Assembly (NCBI GenBank): GCA_963700145.1
Contig: OY969474.1
Location: 4,640,001-4,704,000, forward strand
Length of the DNA: 64,000 bases
Source of the DNA: an uncultured Acidobacteriota bacterium
GTDB taxonomy: Bacteria > Acidobacteriota > Thermoanaerobaculia > Multivoradales > UBA5704
Direction: 5' to 3'
In this document: positions 10,041-29,914 of the stretch, in pieces
Layout: every line of letters begins with the position of its first letter
Position numbering within the stretch: the stretch's first letter is position 1
The notes under the pieces: model-generated
What the model saw: the letters and a program-made list of their open reading frames with translations, nothing else
The model's database searches: none
Told to the model about the DNA's origin: nothing
Made by a program: the position numbers and the translations under genes

Positions 10041-10489
10041 AGGCGGAGCCGGCCGGGGAGCCTTCCCCCGCGGCGCGGGCGACTTCCCGGAGCGTCCGGG
10101 AGCTTCCCCCGAGGCCGCGGAACAATGCCCGGACGCTCCGCGCAGAGTTCCCAACGGCTCGGAACAGTGCCCGGACGGCCCGGGAACTGTTCCCCACGAC
10201 TTGGAACAACGCCCGGACGGCCCGGGCAGAGTTCCCAACGCCTCGGAACAATGCCCGGACGGTTCGGGAGCTGTTCCGGACGCTTCGGGAACAGTCCCCA
10301 AGGGCTTGGAACAATGCCCGGACGCTCCGGGCATTGTTTCCAACGGTTTGGAACTCTTCCCGGTCCGTCCGGGCATTGTTCCCGGGGGCGGGGAACTCTT
10401 CCCGAACCGTCCGGGCATTGTTCCCGAGAGCTGGGAACTCTTCCCGGTCCGTCCGGGCATTGTTCCCGAGGGCTGGGAACTCCTCCCGG

Positions 10490-11854
10490 GGATGTGTCCC
10501 GATTCTTGTGGAGATTCGGCGTAACCCCCTGACTGTCGGGTTGACGTTAGCTCCTCACGCGGCCTGCGTCCAAATCGTGGCGAGGAAACGTTGCAGGTCT
10601 TGGTGGCCATTGACGCTGCGTAGGCGGATCTGGCCGCAGGCCACCAGTGCCCAGAGCAGGGTCAAGGCCGCCTCTTCGGTGGCGAAGCTGGCCTGGGTCT
10701 TGGTGCGGCGTCGAAACTCGCGATGGAGGTTTTCCAGCGCGTTGGTCGAGCGTAGGGTCCTCCACAGCGAGCGGGGAAACTCGTAGAAGGTCAACAGCTC
10801 CTCTCCGGCCTCCTCGAGCGAGCGGGCGACAGCCGGACACAGGCGAGACCACTTGGCGAGGAAGGCCGCGTAGGCCTGATGGGCCGCCCCACCGTCGCGG
10901 GCCTCGACGATCGGGCGCCAGTCGCGCCGGAGCTCGCCGCGAGCATGGCGCGGGCAGTGCTCCAGCAGGTTTCGGAGCTTGTGCTGGGTGCAACGCTGCA
11001 CGCGCACCCCCGGCCACGCCGCCAGCGCCTTGCGCAAGCCAGCGTGGCCGTCGACGATGAGCAACTCGGGCGCCGCCAAGCCCCGCCGCTGCAGATCCTC
11101 GAGCAGCTCGCCCCACAGCCGCGCCGCCTCGCTCGTGGCCAACCGTAACGCCACCAGGACCTTGCCGCCATCGGGGCGCACGCCCAGAGCGGCCAGCACC
11201 GGCACCGCCACCACCCGCCGGGCCAGCCGCACCTTGACGTGGAACCCGTCGAGAAACAGCAGCGCGTAACGCTCGCCCGCACAATCGCGCTCCCGCCAGG
11301 CCGCAAACCGCTCTTTGAGCCGCCCCACCACGCGCGAGGCCGCGCTCTTGGACAGGTGCTCTTCTCCCAGCAGCGGCGCCAGCGCCTTGCCGATCCGTCG
11401 GCTATTGGCCCCCGCCAGATAGCACGACAGGATCGCCGCGTCGATCTCCCGCACCCGCCGCGCGTAGCGCGGCACCAACGCGCTGGCGAACTCTTCCGTC
11501 GTGCCCTCCACTGTGGCCACCCGACCGCGCGGCACCCGCAGCGGCCGGGTCCCCGCCACCGTCGTCACCCGCCGTAGCGTGGCTCCGTTGCGGTAGCCGC
11601 GGCGCACCGCCGTCCGCTCGTAGGGCTGCGCACCCAGCGCCTCCTGAAGCTCCTGCTCTAGCACCAGCTCCACGGCCTCCAGAAGCCTCTGCTCGAGCAG
11701 CCGCCGGATGTCCTGGCGCAGCGGCACCACCTCCTGCTCTGACGTGCTAGCCTCCCACATGGCGTAACCCTCCTCCGCCGCCCACGCGACGGGATGTGCT
11801 TGACAGCTAGGAGGTTACGCCACTTTCTTTTTCCACAAGAATCGGGACGGATCC
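10490..11854 (-). mobile_element. IS256-family insertion sequence (1365 bp) with 8-bp target duplication
   Basis: TIRs GGATGTGTCCCGATTCTTGTGG and CCACAAGAATCGGGACGGATCC; DR CCTCCCGG at 10482-10489 and 11855-11862. Confidence 0.93.
10555..11760 (-). CDS. IS256-family DDE transposase
   Basis: GYRNG, VPRGR, LFLDG, VDGHAGL, QRCTQHKLRN, STNALENLHREFRRR. Confidence 0.95.
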   Translation of the reverse strand: MWEASTSEQEVVPLRQDIRRLLEQRLLEAVELVLEQELQEALGAQPYERTAVRRGYRNGATLRRVTTVAGTRPLRVPRGRVATVEGTTEEFASALVPRYARRVREIDAAILSCYLAGANSRRIGKALAPLLGEEHLSKSAASRVVGRLKERFAAWRERDCAGERYALLFLDGFHVKVRLARRVVAVPVLAALGVRPDGGKVLVALRLATSEAARLWGELLEDLQRRGLAAPELLIVDGHAGLRKALAAWPGVRVQRCTQHKLRNLLEHCPRHARGELRRDWRPIVEARDGGAAHQAYAAFLAKWSRLCPAVARSLEEAGEELLTFYEFPRSLWRTLRSTNALENLHREFRRRTKTQASFATEEAALTLLWALVACGQIRLRSVNGHQDLQRFLATIWTQAA

Positions 11855-12062
11855 CCTCCCGGTCCGTCCGGGCACTGTTGCTGAGGGCTGAGAACTCTGT
11901 CCGAACCGTCCGGGCAGAGTTTCCGGGCGCTTGGAGCTCCGACCCGACGCCGCGGGAGGAGTTTCTTGCGCCTCCCGACCCGACCCGGACGCTCCGGGAA
12001 GAACTCCCGGCGCCCCGAGCTGCCTCACTGGCTGCTCGAATGTGCCCGTTAGCCTTTGGCGC

Positions 12063-12305
12063 ATGGCACGGCCAGCGATTCCCCCGCCCGGATTCGACGA
12101 GCTCACGGCCGACGAGAAGCTCGACTACATCCAGGCGCTCTGGGACAGTGTCGCCGCTCACCCGGACGAAGTCCCGCTGCCGGAGTGGCACCGGGAGGTG
12201 ATCAGGGAGCGGTTGGCAGCCCATCGCCGCGGAGAAGGGGCGTCGCGGCCCTGGATCGAGGTTCGCGAGGAGCTGCTGTCGCGCCTTCGCTCCGCCGCGC
12301 GGTGA
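12063..12305 (+). CDS. Putative addiction-module antitoxin (TIGR02574-like); cognate toxin absent
   Basis: LTADEKLDYIQALWDSV...PEWHREVIRERL...PWIEVR pattern. Confidence 0.8.
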   Translation: MARPAIPPPGFDELTADEKLDYIQALWDSVAAHPDEVPLPEWHREVIRERLAAHRRGEGASRPWIEVREELLSRLRSAAR

Positions 12306-12339
12306 AGCGCCTAAACCTCTCTGGCGACGATCGGCGACT

Positions 12340-12534
12340 TCAATCCTCGAGGCCCTTGTAGAGCTCCGATTCGTCTCCCAGCTTGTTGTTTGTCGACTCG
12401 AAGAGCCGCGTGGTCGGCGGGCGGCGATCGCCGTAGAACCGCGAAGCCACCAGGCGAAGGCCCTGGCGAATCAGCTCGGAAGCGGAGTGGTAGGCCGCTC
12501 GGGCACGCTTCAAGGCCTTCACGTTCCTCTTCAC
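12340..12534 (-). CDS. Small ribbon-helix-helix-like antitoxin, possibly with an internal deletion
   Basis: 64 aa, SASELIRQGL helix motif; GTGA-coupled to the EVE gene. Confidence 0.4.
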   Translation of the reverse strand: MKRNVKALKRARAAYHSASELIRQGLRLVASRFYGDRRPPTTRLFESTNNKLGDESELYKGLED

Positions 12535-13634
12535 TCCGCCTCTTCGGTGTACTCGTCAAGGACGGTGTCAGATAAGTGCGCGAGGTGCTTCTGCCCAGCA
12601 AGCTCGCGGAGGCTGTCGTAAGAGAGATACGTGCAGCTCTCGGCGAGCGGCCCTTTCTCCAGCAAGGAGAACACGGGGCGGCGAATCTCTTGGAAGACCT
12701 TTTCGCGCTTAACCGCGGGAGCGACGAGATGTAACTTGATGTCCATGTTTGGCTGAAGGGCCAGGAGGTCAGCCATGCGCAGGATGCCCGAATACACCGA
12801 GGTTGTGTGCTCCACTTCAAAAGCCCGGACGATCGACCTCCCCCGCAGCCAGAGCACGTCAATCTGCTCGATCGTTCGGAGAGTGGTATCGTCATAGTTG
12901 AGCGGAAGGCGCTGAAGGAGGTCCTGACCATCGGTCTTCCACTCTTTGAGCACAGCCGCTCGGTCGGCGCGAGGAATCCAGATCGACAACCCCATGCTTG
13001 CACCGATCTGAGCAATGAGCGCTTGGACTTTGGTCGACTCCCTCGTCTCGATTTCTGGTGCCTGTTGCGCGGCATCAATAACCCCGGAATCTTCGGGCAC
13101 CGAGACTGTAACTACCTTGTCAGGGCGGTTAACGGTATGGGTGGCTAGTTTCTTGATGTCCTGTTCATCGATTGGATAGGGCTTGAGCTCGGTGGATTGG
13201 AGCGTCAGCGTTTCGGCGAGGAACTTACCATCGCGGTCGTCGAGGCGCACCAAGCTGCTGCGGACCTTGCCGGTCCAGCCCGTAGAACCCTTCTCTAGAT
13301 TTCGGGTGAAGGAGAGGCCGTTCCAAATTGCATCATCGTGGATTGGGATGGATTTGTCGATCTCCAGCCACACTCGTTCTCGAACGCGGAAGCGCAGGAC
13401 GAACGGATCATCCTCGGGCAGGAAGAGCGATTTGTTATCAACGAAGGGCCCCTCAACAACCGCCAAGAGTCCAACCCACCGTGACAAGCGCGTGAGGTAG
13501 CACACGAACATATCACCGGGTTTGACGCGCTCGGCCATTCCCTTATGGCGCAGGCGAAAGCCCGAAATGTCACGTGCTGAGCGCGTGAATGCGTCGTACG
13601 TCTCAGGAGAGCAAATGTCGATGAAGTACGCCAT
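12531..13634 (-). CDS. EVE-domain protein with C-terminal PD-(D/E)XK-like nuclease fold
   Basis: N-terminal VKPGDMFVCYLTRLSRWVG (EVE/PUA-like); C-terminal IDVLW...AFEVEHTTSVYSGILRMADL; low GC. Confidence 0.75.
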   Translation of the reverse strand: MAYFIDICSPETYDAFTRSARDISGFRLRHKGMAERVKPGDMFVCYLTRLSRWVGLLAVVEGPFVDNKSLFLPEDDPFVLRFRVRERVWLEIDKSIPIHDDAIWNGLSFTRNLEKGSTGWTGKVRSSLVRLDDRDGKFLAETLTLQSTELKPYPIDEQDIKKLATHTVNRPDKVVTVSVPEDSGVIDAAQQAPEIETRESTKVQALIAQIGASMGLSIWIPRADRAAVLKEWKTDGQDLLQRLPLNYDDTTLRTIEQIDVLWLRGRSIVRAFEVEHTTSVYSGILRMADLLALQPNMDIKLHLVAPAVKREKVFQEIRRPVFSLLEKGPLAESCTYLSYDSLRELAGQKHLAHLSDTVLDEYTEEAE

Positions 13635-13702
13635 GTACGTTTACGCTCCCGCCTAGGTCAACCGCTCCTTGCGAGCATCTTATCCCCTGCCGGACTTCTG
13701 GC

Positions 13703-14869
13703 CTACGCTGGCTTGAGAAACCGAGCCCCCAAGCCACCGAAAACCACTCCGAAGCCGAGGAGCACCGCGGCCGGCAGGACAACCGCTTCGATCCCCCGCC
13801 CGAAGCTGATCAGGGCGTGGAAGGCGTCCATGGCCCAGGCGGTGGGGAAGACGTGGGCGGCGCGCCAGAGCCAGCGGGGCATGAGCTCGCTCGGCCACCA
13901 GCAGCCGCCGAGGGCGGCCATCACCATGCTGGCGATCCAGCCGACGGCGGAGGCCTGCTCCGGGGTGCGGAAGACGGCGCCGCAGAAGGTGGCGAGGCCG
14001 GCGACGCAGAAGGCGTAGGCGGCGAGGAGGAGGGCGAGGCCGCCGGGCGACCGCCCGAAGTCCAGGCCGAAGAGGAAGCGGCCGGCGGCGAGGAGCACGG
14101 CGACCTGGAGCGCCGCCAGGATCAGCCTCCCGGCGAGCTTCCCGAGGACGAGCGCCGGGCGCGAGAGCGGCAGGCTCACCTGCCGCCGCAGCATCCCCTC
14201 GCGCCGCTCGATCGTCAGGAAGACGCCGCCGTAGATGACGGTCATCATGAGGACCATCATCGTCAGGATGCCGGGGACGCTCTGCGCCATGCCGGCGGGG
14301 ACCGGCCGGCCGTGCCCCGCCGTCGAGACGGCGACCGAGACCAACCGCGGCCGCGCCGCCAGGCGGGCCAGCTCCGCCTTGGCGGCGGCGGGGGTCGCCT
14401 GCGGCGGGAGCTTGCCCGCCGCGTTCATCTCGACCAGCAGGCCCAAGGTGCGGGTAACGGCGCGCATCAGGTTGACGTCGGCGGCACGCGAGAAGTCGCG
14501 ATCGGCCTTCTCGTCGCGCTCGATGCGCAGCGTCTGCGGCTCGCCGGCGAGGACCTTGGCGGTGAAACCCGCGGGGATCGTGAGGGTGCGGACCTTCTCC
14601 TCGGCCGCCGCCGGCGCGGCGGGGGCGACCTCGCGCAGCGCGACGCTCTCGTCGGCGAGCTGCGCAACGAGAGCGCGGGCCAGGAAGCCGCCGTCGCGGT
14701 CCACGACGGTCAGGGTGACCTTCGGCGGCCCTGCATCGCCGCCGCCGCCGCCGACCTGGCCGAAGAACCACATCAGCGCCACCGGAAAGACGAGCATCCA
14801 GAGGAACGACGCCCGCTCCCGCATCGTCAGCCGGAGGTCGTTGAGCGCTAGGCGGAGAACGTTCCTCAC
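13703..14869 (-). CDS. ABC-2 type exporter permease
   Basis: Multi-TM, ERREGMLRR, LGGCWWP, PTAWAMDAF. Confidence 0.88.
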   Translation of the reverse strand: MRNVLRLALNDLRLTMRERASFLWMLVFPVALMWFFGQVGGGGGDAGPPKVTLTVVDRDGGFLARALVAQLADESVALREVAPAAPAAAEEKVRTLTIPAGFTAKVLAGEPQTLRIERDEKADRDFSRAADVNLMRAVTRTLGLLVEMNAAGKLPPQATPAAAKAELARLAARPRLVSVAVSTAGHGRPVPAGMAQSVPGILTMMVLMMTVIYGGVFLTIERREGMLRRQVSLPLSRPALVLGKLAGRLILAALQVAVLLAAGRFLFGLDFGRSPGGLALLLAAYAFCVAGLATFCGAVFRTPEQASAVGWIASMVMAALGGCWWPSELMPRWLWRAAHVFPTAWAMDAFHALISFGRGIEAVVLPAAVLLGFGVVFGGLGARFLKPA

Positions 14870-16128
14870 GCCAACGCCCCGCGCCGCGCCGCGCGGTGGA
14901 GCAGGAAGCCGCCGAGCGCCAGGAGGGCGGCGCCGAGGCCGGCGAGGACCGCGATGTTGGGGAGGACGTCGCGCAGGGTGCCCGCCGACTCGATGAGCGT
15001 CCGGTACCCGGTCGTCCCCCAGTAGAAGGGCGACACCGGCGACACGGCGCGCACCGCCCGCGGCAGCCCCTCGAGGTTGACGAAGCTGCCGCCCGCCATC
15101 GCCAGGACGAGGTAGAGGATCGAGCCGATGGTGGCGCCGCGGCGCTCGTTGAGCGCCAGCCCGTAGATCGTCGCCGAGGTGCCGGTCACCGCCAGGACGA
15201 GCGCCAGGGAGAGCAGGAGGAAGCCCGCCGGGTCCACCCCCCGCCGCAGCACCACCGCCCCGACGGCCGCGAGCACGCCGAGCGCGATGAGCGCGAGGAC
15301 CGCCGTGTAGAGCGCCTTGCCGAGCACCAGCGTGCCGCCGCCGATCGGCCCCGCGAGCTGCCGCCGCAGCGTGCCCGCCGTCGACTCGGCGATGATGTCG
15401 CGCATCGCCAGGTCGCCGACCAGGAAGAGCGCGTAGACCGAGATCCCGGGCAGGATGACGAGGAAGATCAGCGAGACCTCGGAGCCGGAGTCCTCGCCCG
15501 CCGGCTGCGGCTGGAGCGACGCGGTGTCGAAGGCGATGACCGGCGGCGAGAGGACGGCCGCGGCGCCCTCGAAGGCGCGGCGCACGGCGAGCGCGACGGC
15601 GACCGTCGTCTCCTCCGTGGGCGGCTCCGCGCCGGGCCGCGCCGAGGAGGCGATCCGCTCGAGCGGCCCGCGCAGGACGCGCGAGCCGGCGTCGAGGACG
15701 TCGGCCAGCACGCGCGCGAGCTGCTCGGCGATCTCCGGTAGGATCCCCTGTGCCGGGTTGCGGACCACGGCGAGTTGCACCGGTTTGCCGTCGAGGAGGT
15801 TTTGGGTGAAACCCTTCGGGATGCGGAGGAGGGCCGAGGCCTCGCCCTTCTCCATCCGCGCGGCGCCCTCGGTCCCCACGACCTCGACCTCGACCAGCTC
15901 GGCCAGCCGCTCCGACTGCAGGGCGGAGAGCAGGGCGTCCGCCGCGATGCCGCCGTCGCGGTCCTCGACCAGCAGATGGGCTTGCGGCGTGCGGTCGCCC
16001 CGCGCGCCGAAGGAGAGGGCGATCAGGAACGCGAAGACCACCGGGAAGCTGAGCACGATGAGCAGCCCGAGCGGCGACCGGGCCTTGCGCCGCAGGTCCT
16101 TCCCGACCAGCAGCAGGAGGGTGCGCAT
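14866..16128 (-). CDS. ABC-2 type exporter permease
   Basis: MRTLLLLVGKDLRR start coupled to the ATPase stop; GTLRRQL, SPFYW; the real gene is only the 3' part of the 1418-aa ORF. Confidence 0.85.
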   Translation of the reverse strand: MRTLLLLVGKDLRRKARSPLGLLIVLSFPVVFAFLIALSFGARGDRTPQAHLLVEDRDGGIAADALLSALQSERLAELVEVEVVGTEGAARMEKGEASALLRIPKGFTQNLLDGKPVQLAVVRNPAQGILPEIAEQLARVLADVLDAGSRVLRGPLERIASSARPGAEPPTEETTVAVALAVRRAFEGAAAVLSPPVIAFDTASLQPQPAGEDSGSEVSLIFLVILPGISVYALFLVGDLAMRDIIAESTAGTLRRQLAGPIGGGTLVLGKALYTAVLALIALGVLAAVGAVVLRRGVDPAGFLLLSLALVLAVTGTSATIYGLALNERRGATIGSILYLVLAMAGGSFVNLEGLPRAVRAVSPVSPFYWGTTGYRTLIESAGTLRDVLPNIAVLAGLGAALLALGGFLLHRAARRGALA

Positions 16129-17066
16129 CAGTCGCGCAGCTCCCTCCCGGTGAGGTCGAGGAAGACGCTGTTGAGGCTCGGCGGCTGGATCTCGACGCCG
16201 TCGAGGTCGAGCCCCGAGGCGAGCACGCCGGCGAGGGCGTCGAGGGCGGCCTTGCCGGCGCCGGCGACGGAGAGGACGATCTTGCCCGGCGTCGCGGCGA
16301 CGACCTGGACGCCGGGCAGCGCCGCCAGCTTGGCGCGCGCCTCCTCGACCTCGAAGCCGCCGGAGACGGTCAAGATCTCCTTCTCGCCGACGCGGCGCTT
16401 CAGCTCGTCCACCGTCCCCTCGGCCAGGATGCGGCCGTGGTCGATGATCGCCACGCGGTCGCACAGCGTCTCGGCCTCCTCGAGGTAGTGGGTGGTGTAG
16501 ACGACGGTCGTGCCGGCAGCCGCGACGGCGCGCACGGCCTCGAGGATGTTGGCTCGGGCCTGCGGGTCGATCCCCACGGTCGGCTCGTCCATGAGCACGG
16601 CGCGCGGCCCGTGGACGAGGCCGAGCGCCAAGTTGAGCCGGCGCTTCATGCCGCCGGAGTAGGTGCGGACCTGGTCCTTGGCGCGGCCGGTGAGGCCGAC
16701 CTGCTCGAGGACGCGCTCGACGGCGCGGTCGCGGTCGGCGCCGGCGAGGCCGTAGAGCCCGGCCCAGAAGCTGAGGTTCTCGCGCGCCGAGAGGGTGTCG
16801 TAGAGCGCCGTCTCCTGGGGGACGACGCCGAGCTGCGCCTTGACGCGGATCGGGTCGGAGGCGAGCTCGACGCCGTCGAAGAAGACGCGCCCCTCGTCCG
16901 GCTCGAGCAGGCCCGAGAGGATCGACATGGTCGTCGTCTTGCCAGCGCCGTTGGGCCCCAGGAGCCCGTACAGCTCCCCCTTGCGCACCTCGAAGGAGAC
17001 CCCGTCCACCGCCCGCAGGTCGCCGTAGCGCTTGACCAGCCCTTCGACCCTGAACACGCGGGCCAT
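16128..17066 (-). CDS. ABC exporter ATP-binding protein
   Basis: GPNGAGKTT, YSGGMKRRL, MDEPTVGIDP; start at ATG 17066 or GTG 17057. Confidence 0.93.
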   Translation of the reverse strand: MARVFRVEGLVKRYGDLRAVDGVSFEVRKGELYGLLGPNGAGKTTTMSILSGLLEPDEGRVFFDGVELASDPIRVKAQLGVVPQETALYDTLSARENLSFWAGLYGLAGADRDRAVERVLEQVGLTGRAKDQVRTYSGGMKRRLNLALGLVHGPRAVLMDEPTVGIDPQARANILEAVRAVAAAGTTVVYTTHYLEEAETLCDRVAIIDHGRILAEGTVDELKRRVGEKEILTVSGGFEVEEARAKLAALPGVQVVAATPGKIVLSVAGAGKAALDALAGVLASGLDLDGVEIQPPSLNSVFLDLTGRELRD

Positions 17067-17109
17067 TATGGCGCGACTCCCTGCTCGCTCGTTCGCGCAC
17101 TCTTCTTTT

Positions 17110-19434
17110 ATGATGCGATCCCTCCCTCTCGCCCTCATGACCATGCTGCCGCTCGCGGCAGTCCCCGTTCCCGCCGCCGCCCAGCCGCAGCCCGAGGTCG
17201 GCATCCAGGTGCGCTTCGACGTCTCGCCGCCGCTCGCCGAGATCCCGCCCGTCGTCCCCAAGCCGGGGCCGAACCGGGAGGTCCCGAACCTGCGCTACGA
17301 CCGCCCCTCCCGCCCGGCGGCCCCGGGAGGCGATCCGCTGCTCGCCTCGTCCCAGGCCTTCGGTCCCTCCACGCCGAGCACGCCCGCGCCCATCCACAAC
17401 CTCGAAGGCATGTCCGCCGACGACAACTTCGCGCTCCTCGCCATGCGCTTCGCGCCCGCGGACCCGGTGGGGGACGTCGGGCCGACGCACTACGTCCAGG
17501 CGGTGAACCTGCTGCTCTCGGTGCACCTGAAGAGCACCGGCGCGCGGATCTTCGGGCCGGTGGCGCTCAAGACCCTGTGGTCCGGCTTCGGCGGCCTCTG
17601 CGAGAGCCAGAACGACGGCGACCCGATCGTGCTCTACGACGACGCCGCCGACCGCTGGGTGATCAGCCAGTTCGCGATCGATTCGAGCTTCTCCGGCCAC
17701 CAGTGCATCGCCGTCTCGACCACCGGCAACCCCACCGGCTCCTACCACCGCTACGACTTCGCGATGACCCCCGGCTTCCTCAACGACTACCCCAAGATCG
17801 CCGTCTGGCCGGACGGCTACTACATGAGCGTCAACGAGTTCGACGACCTGGGCTACTTCTACGGCGTGACGGTGGTCGCGTTCGAGCGCGCGCCGATGTT
17901 GGCCGGCGCCTCGGCCCAGATGGTCCTGTTCCATCCCTACCCCTGCGGCATGTTCAACCCCCCCGTGCCCGAGTGCCCGTTCAGCCTGCAGCCGGCGCAC
18001 TGGGAGGGCGGGACGCCGCCCCCCGGCGGGACGCCCAACCCCTTCCTCATGGCCTGGGACGACGAGGTCAACGGCACCGGCGCCAACCCGGACGGCTACC
18101 GCCTCTACGACTTCGCGGTCAACTGGGCGACTCCGGCAAGCTCCACCTTCACCGCCCGGCCGCACGTCACGTCCCCGGAGCTCGACCGCCAGATCGTCGA
18201 CGTGCCGCAGCCCGGGTCCGGCGAGGACCTCGACGCGCTGGCCGACTACACGATGTACCGCCTGCAGTACCGCAGCTTCGGCGGCTACGAGGCCCTGGTG
18301 ACCAACCACACGGTCGACGTCAACGGCGCGGACCTCGCCGGCATCCGCTGGGCGGAGCTGCGCCGCAGCGGCGGCGGCGGCTGGACCCTGCACCAGACCG
18401 GCACCCACGCGCCGGCCGACGGCCTCCACCGCTGGAACGGCAGCATCGCGATGGACGGCTTCGGGCACATCGCCCTCGGCTACAACGTGGTCTCGTCGTC
18501 GAAGCACGCCTCGATCCGCTACGTCAGCCGGGCGGCGGCCGATCCGCTCGGCACCCTGCCCGGCGGCGAGATCGAGCTGGTCGCCGGCTCGGGCGTGCAG
18601 CGGGACTCGGGCAACCGCTGGGGGGACTACGCGGCGCTGAGCGTCGACCCGGCCGACGACTGCACCTTCTGGCTCACCCAGGAGTACCTGACCGACACCG
18701 GCCAGTACGACTGGAAGACCCGCATCGGCGCCTTCGACCTGTGCGGCGCCGGCTGCACGCCGACGGAGAGCCCGGAGGTGAGCTGCGCCGACGGCCTCGA
18801 CAACGACTGCGACGGCCTGACCGACGCGGCCGACCCCGACTGCGGCGGCCCGCCGCCGCCCACCACCACCACCTTCACCTCGGTGGCGGCCGACGACGGC
18901 TACGTCCTCGAGTCGGGCGAGAACACCAACGTCGGCGGCTCGAACAAGAGCAACGACAGCGGCACCAGCGCCCTCCGCGCCGGCGACAACCAGCAGGACC
19001 GGCAGTACCGCAGCGTCCTCTCGTTCGACACCGCGCCGATCCCGGACGGCGCCACGGTCCAGACCGTGACCCTGCGCGTGCGGCGCGGGTCGCTGACCGG
19101 CACCAGTCCCTTCACCACCCACGGCAGCCTGACCGCGGACGTCCGCACCGGCGGCTTCAACGGCAACGCCGCCCTGGAGAACGCCGACTTCCAGGCCGCG
19201 GCGACCGCGACGGCCGTCTGCACGCTGTCCAACGCCCCGGCCAACGGCGACTGGTCGGAGTGCACACTCGACGCCGCCGGCCTCGCGGCCGTCAACAAGA
19301 CCGGCAAGACCCAGGTCCGCATCCGCTTCACGACTGACGACAACGACGACACCGGCAACGACTACCTGGGCTATTACTCGGGCGACAACGGGACCGCGGC
19401 GAACCGGCCGCAGCTGGTGGTGACGTACCAGTAG
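17110..19434 (+). CDS. Large secreted protein with a Cys/Asp metal-binding-like motif and a C-terminal DNRLRE/CBM-like domain
   Basis: Signal peptide; DPVGDVGPTHYVQAVN, NDYPK, RWGDY; CADGLDNDCDGLTDAADPDC; ends RPQLVVTY. Confidence 0.7.
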   Translation: MMRSLPLALMTMLPLAAVPVPAAAQPQPEVGIQVRFDVSPPLAEIPPVVPKPGPNREVPNLRYDRPSRPAAPGGDPLLASSQAFGPSTPSTPAPIHNLEGMSADDNFALLAMRFAPADPVGDVGPTHYVQAVNLLLSVHLKSTGARIFGPVALKTLWSGFGGLCESQNDGDPIVLYDDAADRWVISQFAIDSSFSGHQCIAVSTTGNPTGSYHRYDFAMTPGFLNDYPKIAVWPDGYYMSVNEFDDLGYFYGVTVVAFERAPMLAGASAQMVLFHPYPCGMFNPPVPECPFSLQPAHWEGGTPPPGGTPNPFLMAWDDEVNGTGANPDGYRLYDFAVNWATPASSTFTARPHVTSPELDRQIVDVPQPGSGEDLDALADYTMYRLQYRSFGGYEALVTNHTVDVNGADLAGIRWAELRRSGGGGWTLHQTGTHAPADGLHRWNGSIAMDGFGHIALGYNVVSSSKHASIRYVSRAAADPLGTLPGGEIELVAGSGVQRDSGNRWGDYAALSVDPADDCTFWLTQEYLTDTGQYDWKTRIGAFDLCGAGCTPTESPEVSCADGLDNDCDGLTDAADPDCGGPPPPTTTTFTSVAADDGYVLESGENTNVGGSNKSNDSGTSALRAGDNQQDRQYRSVLSFDTAPIPDGATVQTVTLRVRRGSLTGTSPFTTHGSLTADVRTGGFNGNAALENADFQAAATATAVCTLSNAPANGDWSECTLDAAGLAAVNKTGKTQVRIRFTTDDNDDTGNDYLGYYSGDNGTAANRPQLVVTYQ

Positions 19435-21536: not shown

Positions 21537-21539
21537 GGC

Positions 21540-23539: not shown

Positions 23540-23547
23540 TTCTTCCT

Positions 23548-24207: not shown

Positions 24208-24216
24208 GGGGCGAGC

Positions 24217-24837
24217 CTACTCCAAACTCCGCAGCACCGCCCGCACCGGCGAGGCGTCCATGCCGGCGAGCTTGAGCGGCAGGGCGATCAGCTCGTAGAC
24301 CCCCTCGGGCACGCCGTCGAGCACCAGCCCCTCGAGGATGGCGACGCCGCCGCGCACCAGGGCGTGGTGCGCCGGCAGCTCCGTGCTGCCGAAGGGATCG
24401 ACCGACGGCGTGTCGAGGCCGACCAGGAGCACGCCGTGCGCAGCGAGGAGCGCCGCCAGCTCGGGCGACAGCGCGGTGAAGCGCTCGGGGAAGGCGCGGC
24501 GGTCGCGCACGCTCTCTGTGCGTAAAAGCAGGCGGCCGGGGACGGCGAGGTCGATCCCGGCGAGGTGCCGCGGCTCGACCAGCGGCGGCGCCGGCACCTT
24601 GACCACCCGGCAGGCGCCGAGGAAGGGCTCGAGCGGCAGCGCGTCGATCGCGGCGCCGCCCGCTGCGACGTGGCAGGGCGCGTCGACGTGCGCGCCGAGG
24701 TGCAGCGTTGTCGTCACCGTCGCCACGCTCGCCGGATCGCCGGCCGCGAGCGAGGCGGCCGGCCGCGCCGAAAAGTGCTCGTCGCCCGGCCACACCGGCG
24801 TCTCCGGGCGGACGGTGGGGGAGATGTCGTAGAGCAC
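24217..24837 (-). CDS. Cyclase family protein / kynurenine formamidase-like
   Basis: HLGAHVDAPCH, GLDTPSVD, ILEGL, DASPVRAVL. Confidence 0.88.
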   Translation of the reverse strand: MLYDISPTVRPETPVWPGDEHFSARPAASLAAGDPASVATVTTTLHLGAHVDAPCHVAAGGAAIDALPLEPFLGACRVVKVPAPPLVEPRHLAGIDLAVPGRLLLRTESVRDRRAFPERFTALSPELAALLAAHGVLLVGLDTPSVDPFGSTELPAHHALVRGGVAILEGLVLDGVPEGVYELIALPLKLAGMDASPVRAVLRSLE

Positions 24838-24874
24838 GAGGGGGGCCTCCTGGCGTGGATCATAGGCGCGGGGG

Positions 24875-26749
24875 TTGCACTTGCCCGCCGCCGTGGCCTC
24901 CTACCCGCCGATCGGCGACTACGCCCTGCTGGGCGACTGCCGGAGCGCCGCGCTGGTCTCGCGCGGCGGGTCGCTCGACTGGCTCTGCCTGCCGCGCTTC
25001 GACGGGCCGTCGGTCTTCGGCGCCCTCCTCGACGCCGAGCGCGGCGGGCGCTTCGCGGTCGGCCCGGCGGTGCCGGCGCAAGCCCGCCGCCGCTACCTCC
25101 CGAACAGCAACGTCCTCGAGACCACCTTCGAGGGGGCCGGCGGCGTCCTCCGCCTGACCGACGCGATGACCGTCGCCGCCGAGGCGGACAAGCGGCGCGA
25201 GCTGCTGCCCGAGCACGAGGTGCTGCGCGCCGTCGAGTGCCTGGAGGGGGAGGTGGAGGTCGCGGTGGTCTTCGACCCGCGCCCCGACTACGGCCGACGC
25301 GTGCCGGAGATCCGCGCCGGCCGGCCGGGCGAGTTCTACGTCGGCGACGCGCGCGACGTCCTCGTGCTGCGCAGCGAGATCGACCTCGCCGCCGCCCCCG
25401 GGCGCCCCGGCTTGTCCGGCCGCGCGCGCCTCCGCGCCGGCGAGCGGCGGCTCCTCTCGCTCGCCGCCGACCGCGGCGACCCGGCGGTGCTGCCGCCGCT
25501 CGGCGACGCCGCCCTGGCCCGCCTCGACCGCACTCGCCGCTGGTGGGAGGCGTGGGCCGGGCGCTGCCGCTACGAGGGGCCGCAGGCGGCGGCGGTGGTG
25601 CGCAGCGCCCTCGCCCTGCGGCTGCTGCTCTACGCCCCCTCGGGGGCCTTCGTCGCCGCGCCGACCACCTCGCTCCCCGAGTCGCCGGGCGGCATCCGCA
25701 ACTGGGACTACCGCTACTGCTGGCTGCGCGACGCCTCCTGGACGCTCGAAGCGCTCCTCGACCTCGGGTACGAGGAGGAGGCCACGGCCTTCTTCTCCTG
25801 GCTCCTCCACGCCACCCACTGCCACCGCCGCGGGCTGCGCGTCGTCTACGACCTGCACGGCGAGGAGGCGCCGGACGAGCGCGAGCTGGCGCACCTCGCG
25901 GGCTACGGCGGGGCGCGGCCGGTGCGGGTAGGCAACGGCGCCAAGCAGCAGCTGCAGCTCGATATCTTCGGCGAGGTGGTGGACACGGCCTACCAGTTCG
26001 TCGCCCGCGGCGGCACGCTCGACGGCGCCCAGGGGCGGCTCCTCGCCGCGATGGGGGAGGCGGTCTGCCGCCTCTGGCGCGAGCCCGACCAGGGCCTCTG
26101 GGAGCAGCGCGCCGGCGCCCGCCACCACACCTTCTCGAAAGCGATGTGCTGGGTGGCGCTCGACCGGCTGGTCAAGCTCGCCGAGCGCGGGCTGGTGCGC
26201 CTGCCGGCCGCAGGCTTCCGGCGCCAGCGCGACGCGATCCGCGCCGTGGTCGAGAGCCGCGGCTGGAGCGAGCGGCTCGGCAGCTACGTCGACGAGCTGG
26301 ACGGCGAGGAGCTGGACGCGACGCTGCTCCTCCTTGGCGTCTACGGCTTCGAGGCGGCCGGCTCGCCGCGCATGCGCGCGACGCTGGCGCGGGTGCAGGA
26401 GCGGCTCGGGGCAGGTGACAGCGGGCTCCTCTACCGCTACCCGATGGGGCGCGACGGCCTGCCGCCGCACGAGGGGGCCTTCGGCGTCTGCGGCTTCTGG
26501 GCGGTCGAGCTGCTGGCGCGGGCCGGCGACACGGCGGCGGCGGCGGAGCGGCTCGCGCGGCTGGTCGGCTACGCCAACGACGTCGGGCTCTTCGCCGAGG
26601 AGATCGACCCCGCGACCGGCGCCGCGCTCGGCAACTTCCCGCAGGCCTTCACCCACCTGGGGCTGATCAACGCCGCGCTGGTCCTGGCCGAGTGCCTGGG
26701 GCAGGCGGCGGCGCCGGCGCGGCCGCGCAAGGCGGCGGCGCGGCTGTGA
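24875..26749 (+). CDS. Glycoside hydrolase family 15 (trehalase/glucoamylase-like)
   Basis: IGDYALLGDCRSAAL, AAPTTSLPE, RNWDYRYCWLRDA, GNFPQAFTH. Confidence 0.93.
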   Translation: MHLPAAVASYPPIGDYALLGDCRSAALVSRGGSLDWLCLPRFDGPSVFGALLDAERGGRFAVGPAVPAQARRRYLPNSNVLETTFEGAGGVLRLTDAMTVAAEADKRRELLPEHEVLRAVECLEGEVEVAVVFDPRPDYGRRVPEIRAGRPGEFYVGDARDVLVLRSEIDLAAAPGRPGLSGRARLRAGERRLLSLAADRGDPAVLPPLGDAALARLDRTRRWWEAWAGRCRYEGPQAAAVVRSALALRLLLYAPSGAFVAAPTTSLPESPGGIRNWDYRYCWLRDASWTLEALLDLGYEEEATAFFSWLLHATHCHRRGLRVVYDLHGEEAPDERELAHLAGYGGARPVRVGNGAKQQLQLDIFGEVVDTAYQFVARGGTLDGAQGRLLAAMGEAVCRLWREPDQGLWEQRAGARHHTFSKAMCWVALDRLVKLAERGLVRLPAAGFRRQRDAIRAVVESRGWSERLGSYVDELDGEELDATLLLLGVYGFEAAGSPRMRATLARVQERLGAGDSGLLYRYPMGRDGLPPHEGAFGVCGFWAVELLARAGDTAAAAERLARLVGYANDVGLFAEEIDPATGAALGNFPQAFTHLGLINAALVLAECLGQAAAPARPRKAAARL

Positions 26750-27243
26750 GCGGCGGCTGGGCGATCGACTGGCCGAGCATCCTCCTCTGGGGGTTTTTCT
26801 CGACCGTCGTGCTGACGACGACGATGGCGGCGAGCCAGGGGCTGGGGCTGTCGCGGATGGGGATCCCGTTCCTGCTCGGCACGATGCTGACGCCCGACCG
26901 CAAGCGGGCCAACCTCGTCGGCTTTGCCCTCCACTTCGCCAACGGCTGGCTCTTCGCGGTCCTCTACGCCCTCGCCTTCGAGGCCTGGGGGCGGGCGACC
27001 TGGTGGCTGGGGGCGGCGCTGGGCCTGGTGCACGGCTTCGCGGTCCTGGCGGCGCTGATGCCGTTGCTGCCGAGCCTCCACCCGCGGATGGCCTCGGAGG
27101 ACCACGGCCCCGCCCCCACGCCCCAGCTCGAGCCCCCGGGCTTCCTCGCCCTCCACTACGGCCGCGGCACGCCGGCGACGACGCTTCTGGCCCACCTCCT
27201 CTACGGGGCGATCCTGGGCGGCTTCTACACGCTCTCGCGGTAA
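26746..27243 (+). CDS. Membrane protein coupled to the GH15 gene
   Basis: GTGA overlap; about four hydrophobic helices; HPRM, AHLLYG. Confidence 0.75.
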   Translation: MSGGWAIDWPSILLWGFFSTVVLTTTMAASQGLGLSRMGIPFLLGTMLTPDRKRANLVGFALHFANGWLFAVLYALAFEAWGRATWWLGAALGLVHGFAVLAALMPLLPSLHPRMASEDHGPAPTPQLEPPGFLALHYGRGTPATTLLAHLLYGAILGGFYTLSR

Positions 27244-27264
27244 GATCGCCGGCCGAGGCCAACC

Positions 27265-27894
27265 ATGCCCAGCAACCACGAGCTCCTCCTCCACGACCCT
27301 CCAGTCGACCTCGCCGACCTCGGCGAGCGGGACCAGGAGAAGATCGCCCGCATCGGCCACCACGTGCGGGGGATCCTGACGGCGCTCGGCCTCGACCTCG
27401 CCGACCCGAACCTGGCCGAGACCGACCGGCGGGTCGCCAAGATGTACCTCGAGATGTTCCACGGCCTCGAGGAGGGGGCCGAGCCCAAGGTCACCTGCTT
27501 CCCCAACGACGAGTCCTACAGCCACATGGTGATGGAGAAGCAGATCCCCTTCTACTCCATGTGCGCCCACCACCTGGTGCCCTTCTACGGCCACGCCCAC
27601 ATCGCCTACATCCCGCGCGACCGCATCCTCGGCCTCTCGAAGTTCGCGCGCATCCTCGAGTTCTACGCCAAGCGGCCGCAGCTCCAGGAGCGGCTCACCG
27701 AGCAGGTGGTGACCTACTTCGAGGAGAAGCTGCAGCCGCAGGGGGCGATGGTGGTCATCGAGGCGCGCCACCTCTGCGTCGAGATGCGCGGCGTCAAGAA
27801 GCCCGGCGCGCTGACCGTCACCTCCGCCATCCGCGGCATCTTCCACGAGAGGTCGGCGCGTGAAGAGTTCCTCGATCTGCTGCGCCGGCCGTAG
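27265..27894 (+). CDS. folE: GTP cyclohydrolase I
   Basis: SMCAHHLVPFYG, GLSK, RPQLQERLT, HLCVEMRGV. Confidence 0.96.
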   Translation: MPSNHELLLHDPPVDLADLGERDQEKIARIGHHVRGILTALGLDLADPNLAETDRRVAKMYLEMFHGLEEGAEPKVTCFPNDESYSHMVMEKQIPFYSMCAHHLVPFYGHAHIAYIPRDRILGLSKFARILEFYAKRPQLQERLTEQVVTYFEEKLQPQGAMVVIEARHLCVEMRGVKKPGALTVTSAIRGIFHERSAREEFLDLLRRP

Positions 27895-28486
27895 CCTCGC
27901 CCGCGCCGCGCTGCTGGCCGCCCTCGTCGCCGCGGGCGCCTGCGCCGGCGGCACGACGCCGCGCACGATCGAAGACCTCACCAACCCCTACCTCGGGCCC
28001 GAGCACTCGCAGTGGCTGATCGGCGCCGTGTCGCGCCTCGCCAGCCCCGAGGAGGTCCAGGGGTACCTGGCGCTGCGCGACGGCGCCGCGGCGGAGGCCT
28101 TCATCCGCGACTTCTGGACGCGGCGCGACGCGACCCCCGCCGCCCCGGGCAACCCGCTGCGCGAGACCTTCGAGGCCCGCTCCGCCGACGCCGACCGCCT
28201 CTACAGCGAGGCCGGCGTGGTCGGGCGGCGGACGGCGCGCGGCACCGTCCACATCCTCTACGGGCGGCCGTCCAACATCGACTTCGAGGTGTCGCCGAGC
28301 CCCGGCGAGGGGCCGATCGAGCTCTGGCTCTACGCCGAGGGGAGCCCGGCCGGGCTCGACGCGCGCACCCCGGCGCGCTTCTACCGCTTCATCCGCCGCG
28401 GCGACCTGACCGTCCCCTACACGCCGCGCGAGCGGGACCCGCGCTTCCCGCGTGACGCGACGCGGCCGCCGTCGCCGCCGCGCTGA
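27860..28486 (+). CDS. GWxTD-domain-like lipoprotein
   Basis: AAGAC lipobox-like, FIRDFWTRRD.TP...N, RGTVHILYGRP, ELWLY. Confidence 0.7.
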   Translation: MKSSSICCAGRSLARAALLAALVAAGACAGGTTPRTIEDLTNPYLGPEHSQWLIGAVSRLASPEEVQGYLALRDGAAAEAFIRDFWTRRDATPAAPGNPLRETFEARSADADRLYSEAGVVGRRTARGTVHILYGRPSNIDFEVSPSPGEGPIELWLYAEGSPAGLDARTPARFYRFIRRGDLTVPYTPRERDPRFPRDATRPPSPPR

Positions 28487-28514
28487 GCCCGGCGCGAGGA
28501 GCCACCGGCCGATC

Positions 28515-29585
28515 ATGAGCGAGCTGCGCGCGCTGCTGGCCGGGACCGGCGTCGCCGTGCCGCCGCGGCAGGTGGACAACCACATGCTGGCGCGGATCCT
28601 CGACACCAACGACGCGTGGATCCGCGAGCGCAGCGGCGTCGTCACCCGCCACTACGTCGAGCCCGGCATCGCCTCCTCGGACCTGGGGACGGAGGCGGCG
28701 CGCGCCGCCCTCGCCGACGCCGGGGTCGCGCCGGAGGAGCTCGACTACATCGTCTGCGCCACCGCGACCCCCGACCACTACCTGCCGGGGATCGGCACGA
28801 TGGTGCAGCAGAAGCTCGGGATCGGCGCCGTGCCGTCGCTCGACATCCGCCAGCAGTGCGCCGGTTTCGCCTACGGCCTGCAGGTGGTGGACGCCCTGGT
28901 GCGCAGCGGCATCGCGAAGACCGTGCTCCTCGTCGGGGTGGACATCCACACCTCGCTCATGCCCTTCTCCAAGCGCACCTGGGAGGTGCTCTACGACCCC
29001 GCCGCCGGGCCGCTCGAGGAGGCGGAGCGCGAGTGGAACACCCGCTACCGCTACATCGTGGTGCTCTTCGGCGACGCCGCCGGCGCGATGGTCTTCCGCG
29101 CCGGGCGCGAGGACGGGCGCGGCATCCTGCGCTCCGCCCTCTGGGGCGACGGCAACCACAAGGAGATCCTCTACACCCCCGGCGGCGGCTCGGTCTTCCG
29201 CCCCTGGGTGGACCACGAGCAGATCGCGCGCGGCGACCTGGTGCCGGTGATGGACGGCCGGCAGGTCTTCCGCCTGGCGGTGACGCGCATGCCCGAGGCG
29301 GTGCGCCAGCTCCTGGCGCAGGAGGGGGCGGCGGTCGAGGACCTCGACCTGGTGGTGATGCACCAGGCCAACCTGCGGATCAACGAAGCGGCGCAGAAGG
29401 CGCTCGGTCTGCCCGACGAGAAGGTCTGGAACAACATCCAGCGCTACGGCAACACCACCTCCGCCACCATCCCCCTCGCCTTCCACGAGGCGCGCCAGGC
29501 CGGCAAGGCCCCGGAAGGCGCCCTCGTCGCCTTCGCCGCCCTGGGCGCCGGCCTCCACTGGGGGGCGGTGCTGATGCGGGCGTAG
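28515..29585 (+). CDS. Ketoacyl-ACP synthase III (FabH-like)
   Basis: QQCAGF, LFGDAAGA, HQANLRI, YGNT, GAGLHWG. Confidence 0.92.
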   Translation: MSELRALLAGTGVAVPPRQVDNHMLARILDTNDAWIRERSGVVTRHYVEPGIASSDLGTEAARAALADAGVAPEELDYIVCATATPDHYLPGIGTMVQQKLGIGAVPSLDIRQQCAGFAYGLQVVDALVRSGIAKTVLLVGVDIHTSLMPFSKRTWEVLYDPAAGPLEEAEREWNTRYRYIVVLFGDAAGAMVFRAGREDGRGILRSALWGDGNHKEILYTPGGGSVFRPWVDHEQIARGDLVPVMDGRQVFRLAVTRMPEAVRQLLAQEGAAVEDLDLVVMHQANLRINEAAQKALGLPDEKVWNNIQRYGNTTSATIPLAFHEARQAGKAPEGALVAFAALGAGLHWGAVLMRA

Positions 29586-29674
29586 CTCAGCGCCCGGCTA
29601 CTCGACGATGCCGGCCCGCAGGGTGCCGCCGTCCAGGTGGCCGGCTCGACGTCCTCGGCGGAGTACGAAAAGCC

Positions 29675-29905
29675 GGTATCAGAGCTTGATACCTCGGTAT
29701 CGAGCCCTGATACCTCCGTATCAGCCGCCGCTACCCAGGTATCAGGCGCCGCTACCTAGGTATCAGGCGCTGCGACCTAGGTATCGGGCGCCGATACCTC
29801 CGTATCAGGCGCCGCTCCCCCTGTGTCGAGCGCTGATACTCAGGTATCACGGGCCGATACCCCCGTATGGAGCGCTCATACCTCCGTATCGACGCTCCCG
29901 ACCTC
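29675..29905. repeat. 21-bp palindromic tandem array, 11 units
   Basis: Consensus GGTATC-N7-GATACC-NN, exact 21-bp period from 29675. Confidence 0.88.
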
Positions 29906-29914
29906 TTCCTCCAC

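What the first reader, a model, noticed from the sequence alone, without database searches (positions are those of the whole stretch)
10063..29905. Two 21-bp palindromic arrays with different sequences but identical 6-7-6-2 geometry, each opening an accessory island
Seen: array A (10063-12023, about 28 units) alternates GTTCCC-N7-GGGAAC-NN with TGCCCG-N7-CGGGCA-NN. Array B (29675-29905, 11 units) is GGTATC-N7-GATACC-NN. Both have a 6-bp stem, variable 7-nt loop, 6-bp stem and 2-nt linker, and keep an exact 21-bp period (about two helical turns) despite heavy substitution. There is at least one compensatory change (GTATG...CATAC at 29864). Each starts shortly after the stop of a + strand core gene and precedes TA remnants and defence-like genes. 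No cas, Tas or RAYT gene is present. Inference: one class of structural element conserved in geometry rather than sequence, such as a phased protein-binding lattice, a hairpin-array RNA or a recombination platform marking insertion hotspots. This is my best candidate for an undescribed system.
Basis: partly seen in the sequence, partly recalled or inferred. Interest (0 to 1): 0.78.

Follow-up and report, generated by a model that had tools for sequence, protein, structure and literature searches.

The report
Palindromic 21-bp minisatellites beside variable regions
Two non-coding tandem arrays of small hairpin-forming 21-bp units sit just after core genes in a Thermoanaerobaculia genome; they look like drifting, breakage-prone repeat DNA of the REP/BIME kind, not a new genetic system.

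Summary
Both arrays are real and keep an exact 21-bp register with 6-7-6-2 geometry. No other place in the window does. Array A is one array of 28 units.

The arrays are non-coding. GC3 is at most 0.77, against 0.95-0.98 in real genes, and substitutions show no codon phase.

A related MAG (L002) carries array A at the same site, unit for unit:
- It differs by 17%, within the 8-32% seen at four-fold sites.
- Both indels are exactly 21 bp.
- 0 of 33 changed stem pairs are compensatory.

A closer relative (L001) lacks both arrays. One of its deletion ends lies in array A's last unit.

No RAYT, cas, par or integrase gene is in the window. Neither unit occurs outside its array.

Best reading: palindromic minisatellites, closest to tandem REP/BIME clusters. 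They evolve by whole-unit gain and loss and act as fragile sites beside toxin-antitoxin and defence islets.

Unexplained: two unrelated unit sequences share one geometry, and no small indels occur. A genome-wide scan could not be run.

The parts
10063..10489 (.). Array A, left part: 20 whole 21-bp units plus the first 7 nt of the unit split by the IS. Degenerate at the left edge, best kept at 10315-10482.
   Evidence: Stem pairing per unit is listed.
10490..11854 (-). IS256-family insertion sequence inside array A. Transposase at 10555-11760. 8-bp target duplication at 10482-10489 and 11855-11862.
   Evidence: Pfam Transposase_mut 1e-86. NCBIfam transpos_IS256 8.6e-87. Inverted repeats and duplication checked. 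Absent from the orthologous array in L002.
11863..12023 (.). Array A, right part: the rest of the split unit plus 7 increasingly degenerate units, still in register.
   Evidence: These units align one-to-one with L002:1275-1442.
29675..29905 (.). Array B: 11 units of GGTATC-N7-GATACC-NN.
8970..10040 (+). Class I/II aminotransferase, the core gene whose stop precedes array A. The ORF as listed starts at 8592.
   Evidence: Pfam Aminotran_1_2 2.8e-26. Conserved in L001 (truncated there) and L002.
28452..29585 (+). FabH-type beta-ketoacyl-ACP synthase III, the core gene whose stop precedes array B.
   Evidence: Pfam. NCBIfam 2.4e-97. 96% identical in L001.
11931..12305 (+). Orphan addiction-module antitoxin directly after array A. 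No toxin partner is present.
   Evidence: Pfam Unstab_antitox 7e-14. TIGR02574.
29598..30158 (+). Collage around array B: short direct copies of nearby gene pieces. 29598-29631 matches 30810-30843; 29915-29949 matches 34137-34170; 29963-30049 matches 29463-29549; 30053-30158 matches 31033-31138.
   Evidence: at 88-98% identity.
30191..30756 (+). VapBC-like toxin-antitoxin pair after array B: a 66-aa ORF at 30191-30391, then a PIN-domain ORF.
   Evidence: Pfam PIN 4.2e-12 on frame 30331-30756. The small ORF has no Pfam match.

Best explanation
Arrays A and B are non-coding palindromic minisatellites. Each is a tandem, head-to-tail amplification of a 19-nt imperfect hairpin plus a 2-nt linker, lying in the 3' intergenic spacer of a core gene. 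In kind they are closest to tandem REP/BIME clusters.

SHOWN
- They grow and shrink by whole units.
- Their ends are decayed and their middles better kept, and they carry higher-order periods of 42, 84, 105 and 147 bp. This is the usual pattern of arrays that evolve by slippage or unequal exchange.
- Their sequence drifts at about the neutral rate.
- A close relative has lost them.

INFERRED
- Every unit is self-complementary, so the whole array is symmetric about each loop. It can therefore fold back or extrude as a cruciform.
- That would make it a fragile, recombination-prone spot. It would attract IS insertion, deletion ends and patchwork repair, and so it ends up beside variable toxin-antitoxin and defence islets.
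- Any cellular role is likely a side effect of the REP kind: hairpins at the 3' end of the upstream mRNA, or binding of a general DNA-structure protein such as gyrase. It is not a dedicated system.
- The shared 21-bp geometry is best explained by descent from one satellite family. In such families the period outlives the sequence, and template switching within quasi-palindromes (a recalled mechanism) keeps units symmetric without selection.
For: NON-CODING
- GC3 in all six frames is at most 0.77 for A and 0.69 for B. The genes picked have 0.81-0.99, mostly 0.95-0.98.
- Orthologue substitutions per codon phase are 0.15, 0.18 and 0.18.
- Array translations found no protein: 0 of 2246 candidates and 0 of 616 candidates.

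ORTHOLOGY AND UNIT DYNAMICS
- L002:897-1442 aligns unit for unit with array A: 26 pairs and two indels, each exactly 21 bp.
- Differences are 93 of 546 (17%): stems 14% and 12%, loop 16%, linker 44%.
- Four-fold site divergence for the same genome pair is 0.077-0.318 in five genes, and 0.318 in the adjacent aminotransferase. I dropped the row for 17032-19434 because its codon-position pattern showed I had the wrong frame.

NO SELECTION FOR PAIRING
- 0 compensatory, 16 lost and 17 gained among 33 changed stem pairs.
- Array B: 1 compensatory cell, reached by 96 of 500 shuffles.
- Mismatches show no strand bias typical of RNA: G.T 20 against A.C 13.
- Single-unit hairpins range from -3.5 to -12.7 kcal/mol, and some score no better than shuffles.

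SATELLITE-LIKE ANATOMY
- Stem pairing per unit runs 3, 5, 2 at the left edge, 4-6 in the middle and 3, 5, 3, 3, 2, 4, 2 at the right edge.
- Tandem Repeats Finder (TRF) reports periods of 42, 84, 105 and 147 bp.

DISPENSABLE AND FRAGILE
- L001 (95% amino-acid identity) lacks window 9685 to about 12003, with the right breakpoint in the last unit. It has no array B after fabH.
- An IS sits inside array A.
- A collage of 34-106-bp copies of nearby genes surrounds array B.

NO PARTNER GENES
- Pfam scans of 23, 46 and 65 ORFs or frames found none.
- Rfam gave 0 hits at gathering score and only weak chance-level hits at E up to 1.

PRECEDENT IN PRINT
- BIME-2 units occur as multiple tandem copies, and their number varies between strains at a given locus (PMC3333891, passages).
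- REPs are reiterated in tandem. Thauera has arrays of 5-bp-stem REPs flanking gene clusters (PMC3733652, passages).
Against: - Two arrays of unrelated sequence share exactly the 6-7-6-2, 21-bp geometry. In about 150 kb of this clade no palindromic array of any other geometry exists. A purely accidental origin makes that a coincidence, and my common-descent explanation is untested.
- No indel other than whole units occurs in 28 + 26 + 11 units. My roughly delimited intergenic alignments of the same genomes show 5 indels per 93 substitutions. This could mean selection on phasing.
- Units have kept one-to-one orthology over 17% divergence, so the array is long-lived for neutral DNA in a bacterium.
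- The CC/GG cores (columns 4-5 and 15-16) are at least 90% conserved.
- Array A's unit classes do covary as paralogues: 52 double-change cells against 27.6 +/- 6.2 in shuffles, 0 of 500 shuffles as high.
- Defining REP features are not met: units are not dispersed, there is no GTAG/CGTC tag and no RAYT.
- Fragility is inferred from three genomes only.
Confidence: 0.55

Rival explanations
1. Phased protein-binding lattice. Each palindrome would be a dimer site. The 21-bp period is two helical turns, so all sites lie on one face and a cooperative nucleoprotein array can form. That array would be centromere-like, an insulator, or a gyrase or nucleoid-protein site.
For: - The 21-bp register is exact, with only whole-unit indels.
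- Symmetric CC/GG cores are at least 90% conserved.
- The same geometry appears with different sequence.
- The format resembles F sopC, which has 12 direct 43-bp repeats, each with a 16-bp inverted repeat bound by SopB (abstract of PMC3177203, seen in the listing).
- BIMEs bind gyrase, IHF and Pol I (PMC3333891, passage).
Against: - No parA/parB, HTH or ribbon-helix-helix gene is tied to the arrays. The only ParA-fold gene, at 52347-53438, is the Mrp/NUBPL type and lies 22 kb away.
- The context is chromosomal core genes.
- Stems diverge about as fast as loops, and near the neutral rate.
- Many half-sites are mismatched.
- L001 lacks both arrays.
- Two different site sequences would need two proteins, or one protein that reads shape alone.
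- Half-site centres are 13 bp apart, which is unusual for HTH dimers (my own knowledge).
Confidence: 0.17
2. Hairpin-array RNA. The arrays would be transcribed as the 3' UTR of the upstream gene or as their own RNA. They would then act as exonuclease barriers or terminators, or as a precursor cut into unit RNAs, as in type III toxin-antitoxin antitoxin repeats.
For: - Both arrays start 23-90 bp after the stop of a + strand gene.
- Most units can form 5-9-bp hairpins of -7 to -13 kcal/mol.
- Toxin-antitoxin genes lie downstream of both.
- Type III antitoxins are tandem repeat RNAs (abstract of PMC3401426, seen in the listing).
Against: - No compensatory change between orthologues: 0 of 33.
- No G.U excess on the + strand.
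- The minimum-energy fold is one long-range fold-back, not a chain of hairpins. The strong z-scores of -7.7 and -16.7 follow trivially from self-complementary repeats.
- No U-tract terminators or sigma-70-like promoters were found.
- The downstream modules are type II (antitoxin protein, PIN). There is no ToxN-like gene.
- No Rfam family matches.
Confidence: 0.12
3. Relics of mobile-element ends or attachment sites. The arrays would have arrived with, or been built by, the elements that delivered the neighbouring islets, for example through repeated site-specific integration.
For: - Both arrays sit exactly at core/variable junctions.
- Around array B there are direct copies of the 3' ends of fabH, the globin and the FG-GAP gene, as integrative elements leave.
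Against: - No integrase or recombinase is in the window.
- The duplicated pieces interleave (order f1, h1, k1, f2, g1, h2, g2, k2), so they are not nested att pairs.
- Array A is shared by the window and L002, whose downstream contents differ. It therefore predates the islet differences.
Confidence: 0.1
4. Coding heptad repeats of a real protein, or an assembly artefact.
For: - 21 bp equals 7 codons.
- All six frames of array A are open in the window, and one frame of array B is open.
Against: - GC3 is far below that of real genes.
- Substitutions show no codon phase.
- Four of six frames carry stops in L002.
- No homologous proteins were found. Of the 55 hits I inspected 9, and all were unrelated heptad or low-complexity proteins.
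- Against an artefact: array A occurs in two independent MAGs with 17% divergence, and array B's units differ from each other by about 23%.
Confidence: 0.03

Closest known systems
E. coli BIME-2 / tandem REP clusters, and the Thauera sp. MZ1T arrays of 5-bp-stem GTAG-1 REPs
   Same: Short imperfect palindromes repeated in tandem with fixed short linkers in extragenic spacers next to gene 3' ends. Copy number varies between strains at a locus. They are targets for IS insertion. (PMC3333891 passages; PMC3733652 passages; PMC2817692 abstract.)
   Different: The units here are not dispersed: no single copy in 64 kb of the window, nor in the 87 kb of related loci L001-L006 scanned for arrays. They carry no GTAG/CGTC tag, and no RAYT gene is seen. 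Each locus has its own unit sequence. Arrays are longer (28 and 11 units) and the units are smaller (19 nt). The window does hold a separate, truly dispersed REP-like 35-bp element.
Bacterial minisatellites / VNTRs such as MIRU-type intergenic repeats (recalled)
   Same: Head-to-tail intergenic arrays that change by whole units and sit between genes.
   Different: Each unit here is itself a palindrome, so the whole array is self-complementary. Units are much more diverged from one another (mean column identity 64% and 77%) than in typical VNTRs. Orthology of single units has survived 17% divergence.
Plasmid centromere arrays such as F sopC
   Same: Tandem direct repeats at an integral number of helical turns, each carrying an inverted repeat (PMC3177203 abstract).
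   Different: No partition genes. The context is chromosomal. Sequence drifts near the neutral rate, and a close relative has lost the arrays.
CRISPR arrays
   Same: Regularly spaced short palindromic repeats.
   Different: No unique spacers: only a 7-nt loop and a 2-nt linker. No cas genes and no leader.

Membership tests
REP/BIME (RAYT-associated extragenic palindromes) | Short (20-40 nt) imperfect palindrome able to form a stem-loop | tested here: met
   19-nt 6-7-6 units. 21 of 28 units (A) and 9 of 11 units (B) have at least 4 of 6 Watson-Crick pairs.
REP/BIME (RAYT-associated extragenic palindromes) | High copy number, dispersed through extragenic space | tested here: not met
   No copy of either unit outside its array in 64 kb. 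The only outside matches, at 55006 and 62424, are at chance level. The periodic-array scans found none in L001 or L003-L006. The whole genome was not available.
REP/BIME (RAYT-associated extragenic palindromes) | Conserved GTAG or CGTC tag at one end, outside the stem | tested here: not met
   Read from alignments A1 and A2. The positions flanking the stems (the linker) are the least conserved, at 44% divergence. CTAC appears in only 2 of 11 B units, and inside the stem.
REP/BIME (RAYT-associated extragenic palindromes) | A RAYT (Y1 transposase) gene in the genome, often flanked by REPs | not testable with these tools
   None in the window. The rest of the genome is not to hand.
Minisatellite / VNTR | Head-to-tail tandem units of 10-100 bp that change by whole units between strains | tested here: met
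   TRF periods of 21 and 42 bp. Two indels of exactly 21 bp between the window and L002, and no other indel.
Partition centromere (sopC / parC type) | Adjacent partition operon (ParA/ParB, ParM/ParR) on a plasmid or prophage | tested here: not met
   No such genes beside either array. The flanks are core chromosomal genes, syntenic in L001 and L002.
CRISPR | Repeats separated by unique spacers of about 30 bp, with cas genes | tested here: not met
   Units abut with a 2-nt linker. No cas genes in the Pfam scans. A weak CRISPR-DR20 Rfam match lies inside fabH, at 19.5 bits against a 42-bit threshold.
Type III toxin-antitoxin RNA antitoxin array (ToxI type) | Tandem repeats directly upstream of a ToxN-type endoribonuclease gene | tested here: not met
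   Downstream genes are a type II antitoxin and a VapBC-like pair 285 bp away. No ToxN-like match.
Protein-coding heptad repeat | Codon-position signature and codon-phased substitutions | tested here: not met
   GC3 at most 0.77 (A) and 0.69 (B), against 0.95-0.98 in genes. Phase rates 0.15, 0.18 and 0.18.

The most novel reading that the evidence does not exclude
The arrays would be members of a class of elements defined by geometry and not by sequence: 6-bp stem, 7-nt loop, 2-nt linker, exact two-turn phasing. A host or mobile-element factor would read hairpin or cruciform shape and spacing. The class would mark or insulate the core-side border of integration hotspots where toxin-antitoxin and defence islets accumulate. 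The evidence does not exclude this. The shared geometry, the absence of non-unit indels and the two-for-two placement at variable junctions all remain unexplained.
Probability: 0.1. Interest if true: 0.75.

Novelty: new variant of a known kind. Interest (0 to 1): 0.32.

Why it matters
If the ordinary reading holds, the arrays are an example of self-complementary minisatellites acting as fragile sites in an uncultured acidobacterial lineage. They would help explain why small toxin-antitoxin and defence islets cluster right after particular core genes. They also warn annotators: all six frames of array A are open in the window.

If the geometry turns out to recur across many loci with different sequences, it would point to a shape-reading factor and a new kind of hotspot marker, which would be of wider interest.

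Tried and rejected
- Sequence homology between A and B. The consensus loops and linkers looked alike by eye (GAGsGCT and TC). A profile comparison gave 8.45 in register, but 9.03 and 8.17 at unrelated shifts. Rejected.
- Coding repeats. Rejected.
- Finding more arrays through mistranslated ORFs in protein collections. Frame NNART: 0 hits. Array B frame: 0 hits. Frame CPDGPG against 1.84 billion representatives: 55 hits; the 9 I inspected were unrelated heptad or low-complexity proteins. This method cannot show absence.
- Similar DNA in plasmids and phages. blastn in distant mode found none for either array.
- Rfam. Nothing at gathering score; at E up to 1 only miRNA-type chance matches.
- Other palindromic arrays in relatives. 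None in L001 or L003-L006. L004-L006 do not contain the aminotransferase or fabH orthologues, so they say nothing about those sites.
- Nested att-site reading of the duplicated gene fragments around array B. Rejected because the pairs interleave.
- DGR-like template/variable repeat reading of the fabH and globin duplicates. Considered from reading the fabH copies: the two mismatches there are not adenine-specific, and no reverse transcriptase appeared in the Pfam scans. Not pursued; the globin pair's mismatches were not examined.
- Amplified toxin-antitoxin operator. Considered, but the units nearest the antitoxin gene are the most decayed, and the array persists in L002 where the antitoxin is a remnant.
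- Literature. Searches found no description of 21-bp palindromic arrays in Thermoanaerobaculia or Acidobacteriota. One search ('Thermoanaerobaculia' plus 'repeats') returned 4 papers, none on this judging by title and abstract.
- Not done. A genome-wide or clade-wide DNA scan.

Full report
WHAT IS THERE

The window is high-GC DNA (about 72%). It comes from a Thermoanaerobaculia (Acidobacteriota) genome, judged by the titles of its closest syntenic relatives.

Both arrays exist as described. Array B (29675-29905) has 11 units of GGTATC-N7-GATACC-NN. Array A is in register from 10063.

Summing the 6-7-6 palindrome score over four units spaced 21 bp singles out only these two places in 64 kb. One position in one of 20 shuffles reached the threshold. 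A scan of 288 stem/loop/linker geometries over the window and L001-L006 flagged only array A, its orthologue in L002 and array B, always at period 21.

A 1365-bp IS256-family element lies at 10490-11854, with a transposase at 10555-11760 on the minus strand. Its terminal inverted repeats match at 21 of 23 positions. It is flanked by the 8-bp duplication CCTCCCGG. With the IS removed, array A is one array of 28 units. Its ends are decayed and its middle is best kept.

The two 'alternating' unit types are one word pair, TTCCC/GGGAA, spaced N9 and N7 in turn. All four half-site combinations (TTCCCG or TGCCCG with CGGGAA or CGGGCA) occur. The left-half units of one type read as the reverse complement of the right-half units. 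That is my reading.

NOT CODING

No frame through either array has the GC3 of real genes: at most 0.77 and 0.69, against mostly 0.95-0.98. All six frames of array A are open in the window, but four of six carry stops in L002. Orthologue substitutions show no codon phase. Translations of the arrays found no protein family. The 55 hits of a third frame were heptad or low-complexity proteins in the 9 I inspected.

COMPARATIVE EVIDENCE

One genome scan was available. I used it on the S9 peptidase gene midway between the arrays, so that 10-kb flanks would reach both.

L002 (93% amino-acid identity in that gene) has array A at the same place after the aminotransferase stop, without the IS.
- A unit-level alignment pairs 26 units one-to-one. 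There are two indels, each exactly 21 bp.
- The units differ at 93 of 546 positions (17%): stems 14% and 12%, loop 16%, linker 44%.
- Four-fold sites of five genes in the same genome pair differ by 8-32%, and by 32% in the neighbouring aminotransferase. One row was dropped there because I had the wrong frame.
- The array therefore drifts at roughly the neutral rate.
- Among 33 stem pairs that changed, none changed on both sides so as to keep pairing. 16 lost pairing and 17 gained it.

Among paralogous units, array A shows more double changes than shuffles do (52 against 27.6). That signal reflects the two unit classes and so very few events. Array B's single compensatory cell is not significant. 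Mismatches show no excess of G.T over A.C on the + strand (20 against 13), so there is no sign of RNA-level selection.

L001 is the closer relative (95%). It lacks window 9685 to about 12003, which truncates the aminotransferase and ends in the last array unit. Unrelated genes follow directly after its fabH stop, with no array B.

CONTEXT

The window is chromosomal core DNA. Pfam scans found no RAYT, cas, TnpB, integrase or partition genes.

After array A:
- an orphan antitoxin at 11931-12305;
- the remnant of a minus-strand VapBC pair, whose PIN partner survives in L001;
- a restriction-enzyme-like ORF.

After array B:
- a collage of 34-106-bp direct copies of pieces of fabH, the globin gene and the FG-GAP gene;
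- a VapBC-like pair;
- a globin gene, and a bSEFIR/TIR gene in a lower-GC stretch.

The claim that each array borders a variable, accessory segment holds against two relatives. It rests on two arrays only.

INTERPRETATION

The anatomy is what slippage and unequal exchange produce in a tandem array: decayed edges, higher-order periods of 42 to 147 bp and whole-unit indels. Near-neutral drift, no compensatory evolution, loss in a close relative and the lack of partner genes all argue against a dedicated system.

Each unit is self-complementary, so the array is symmetric about every loop. Its minimum-energy fold is one long fold-back, not a chain of hairpins. The strong z-scores follow trivially from this.

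I infer that such DNA is fragile. The IS insertion, a deletion breakpoint, two unit indels and the patchwork next to array B fit that view, but three genomes cannot prove it.

The closest described things are tandem REP/BIME clusters. BIME-2 copies vary in number between strains at a locus (PMC3333891, passages). REPs are reiterated in tandem, and Thauera has arrays of 5-bp-stem REPs beside gene clusters (PMC3733652, passages).

Membership in the REP family fails on three defining features: dispersal, the GTAG/CGTC tag and, as far as the window shows, a RAYT gene. I therefore file the arrays as a variant, palindromic minisatellites, and not as REPs.

WHAT STAYS OPEN

The two unit sequences are unrelated, yet they share the geometry exactly. 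No non-unit indel occurs in 65 units. My roughly delimited intergenic alignments show 5 indels per 93 substitutions.

Common descent of a satellite family whose period outlives its sequence would explain this. Symmetry could then be kept by quasi-palindrome template switching, a mechanism I recall and did not test. Selection for two-turn phasing would explain it as well.

Only a clade-wide DNA scan can decide, and I could not run it.

VERDICT

- The interpretation as an undescribed system is not supported. The hotspot idea is partly supported.
- Novelty: a new variant of a known kind.
- Interest: modest.

Noticed in passing
window 34068-34102, 54301-54335, 61175-61212, 35826-35860 (inverted), 35878-35912: A dispersed REP-like element of about 35 bp (core ...CAGATCCTTCGCT.CGCTCAGGATGAC), at 80-97% identity between copies. 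All copies are intergenic and next to gene 3' ends. Two of them form an inverted pair between 35804 and 35924. This looks like the genome's true dispersed REP family and is unrelated to arrays A and B.
   Followed up: partly
window 29598-30158, with sources at 29463-29549, 30810-30843, 31033-31138 and 34137-34170: The spacer holding array B is a collage of short direct copies (34-106 bp, 88-98% identical) of pieces of fabH, the globin gene (its 3' end and an internal part) and the 3' end of the FG-GAP gene. The copy pairs interleave, so they are not nested insertions. Templated patch repair or repeated rearrangement is my guess.
   Followed up: partly
L001:4813-5300 against window 9685-12320: The closest relative has a deletion that removes the 3' 355 bp of the aminotransferase gene, all of array A and the orphan antitoxin. 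It keeps an intact minus-strand PIN/RHH (VapBC-like) pair, of which the window retains only the antitoxin homologue (12340-12534).
   Followed up: partly
window 12531-13634 (-), 31791-32693 (-), 858-2198 (+), 2195-3403 (+): Defence-like genes in lower-GC stretches: a type II restriction-enzyme-like ORF (PADLOC 1e-13); a bSEFIR/TIR protein (PADLOC 1.5e-65); an AAA_14/DUF4143 ATPase (PADLOC PDC-S01 1e-45); and next to it a Schlafen AlbA_2-domain protein.
   Followed up: partly
window 63137-63288: A 39-bp tandem repeat (3.8 copies, 86% matches) inside the ORF 62834-63643, which carries MerR/HTH matches.
   Followed up: no
window 14866-19122 (-) and 17032-19434 (+): The 1418-aa minus-strand ORF is probably not one gene. 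Only its C-terminal part matches ABC-2 permeases. An ABC ATPase ORF (16128-17261) and a high-GC3 plus-strand ORF (17032-19434, no Pfam match) overlap the rest. My frame for 17032-19434 gave a wrong codon-position divergence pattern against L002.
   Followed up: no
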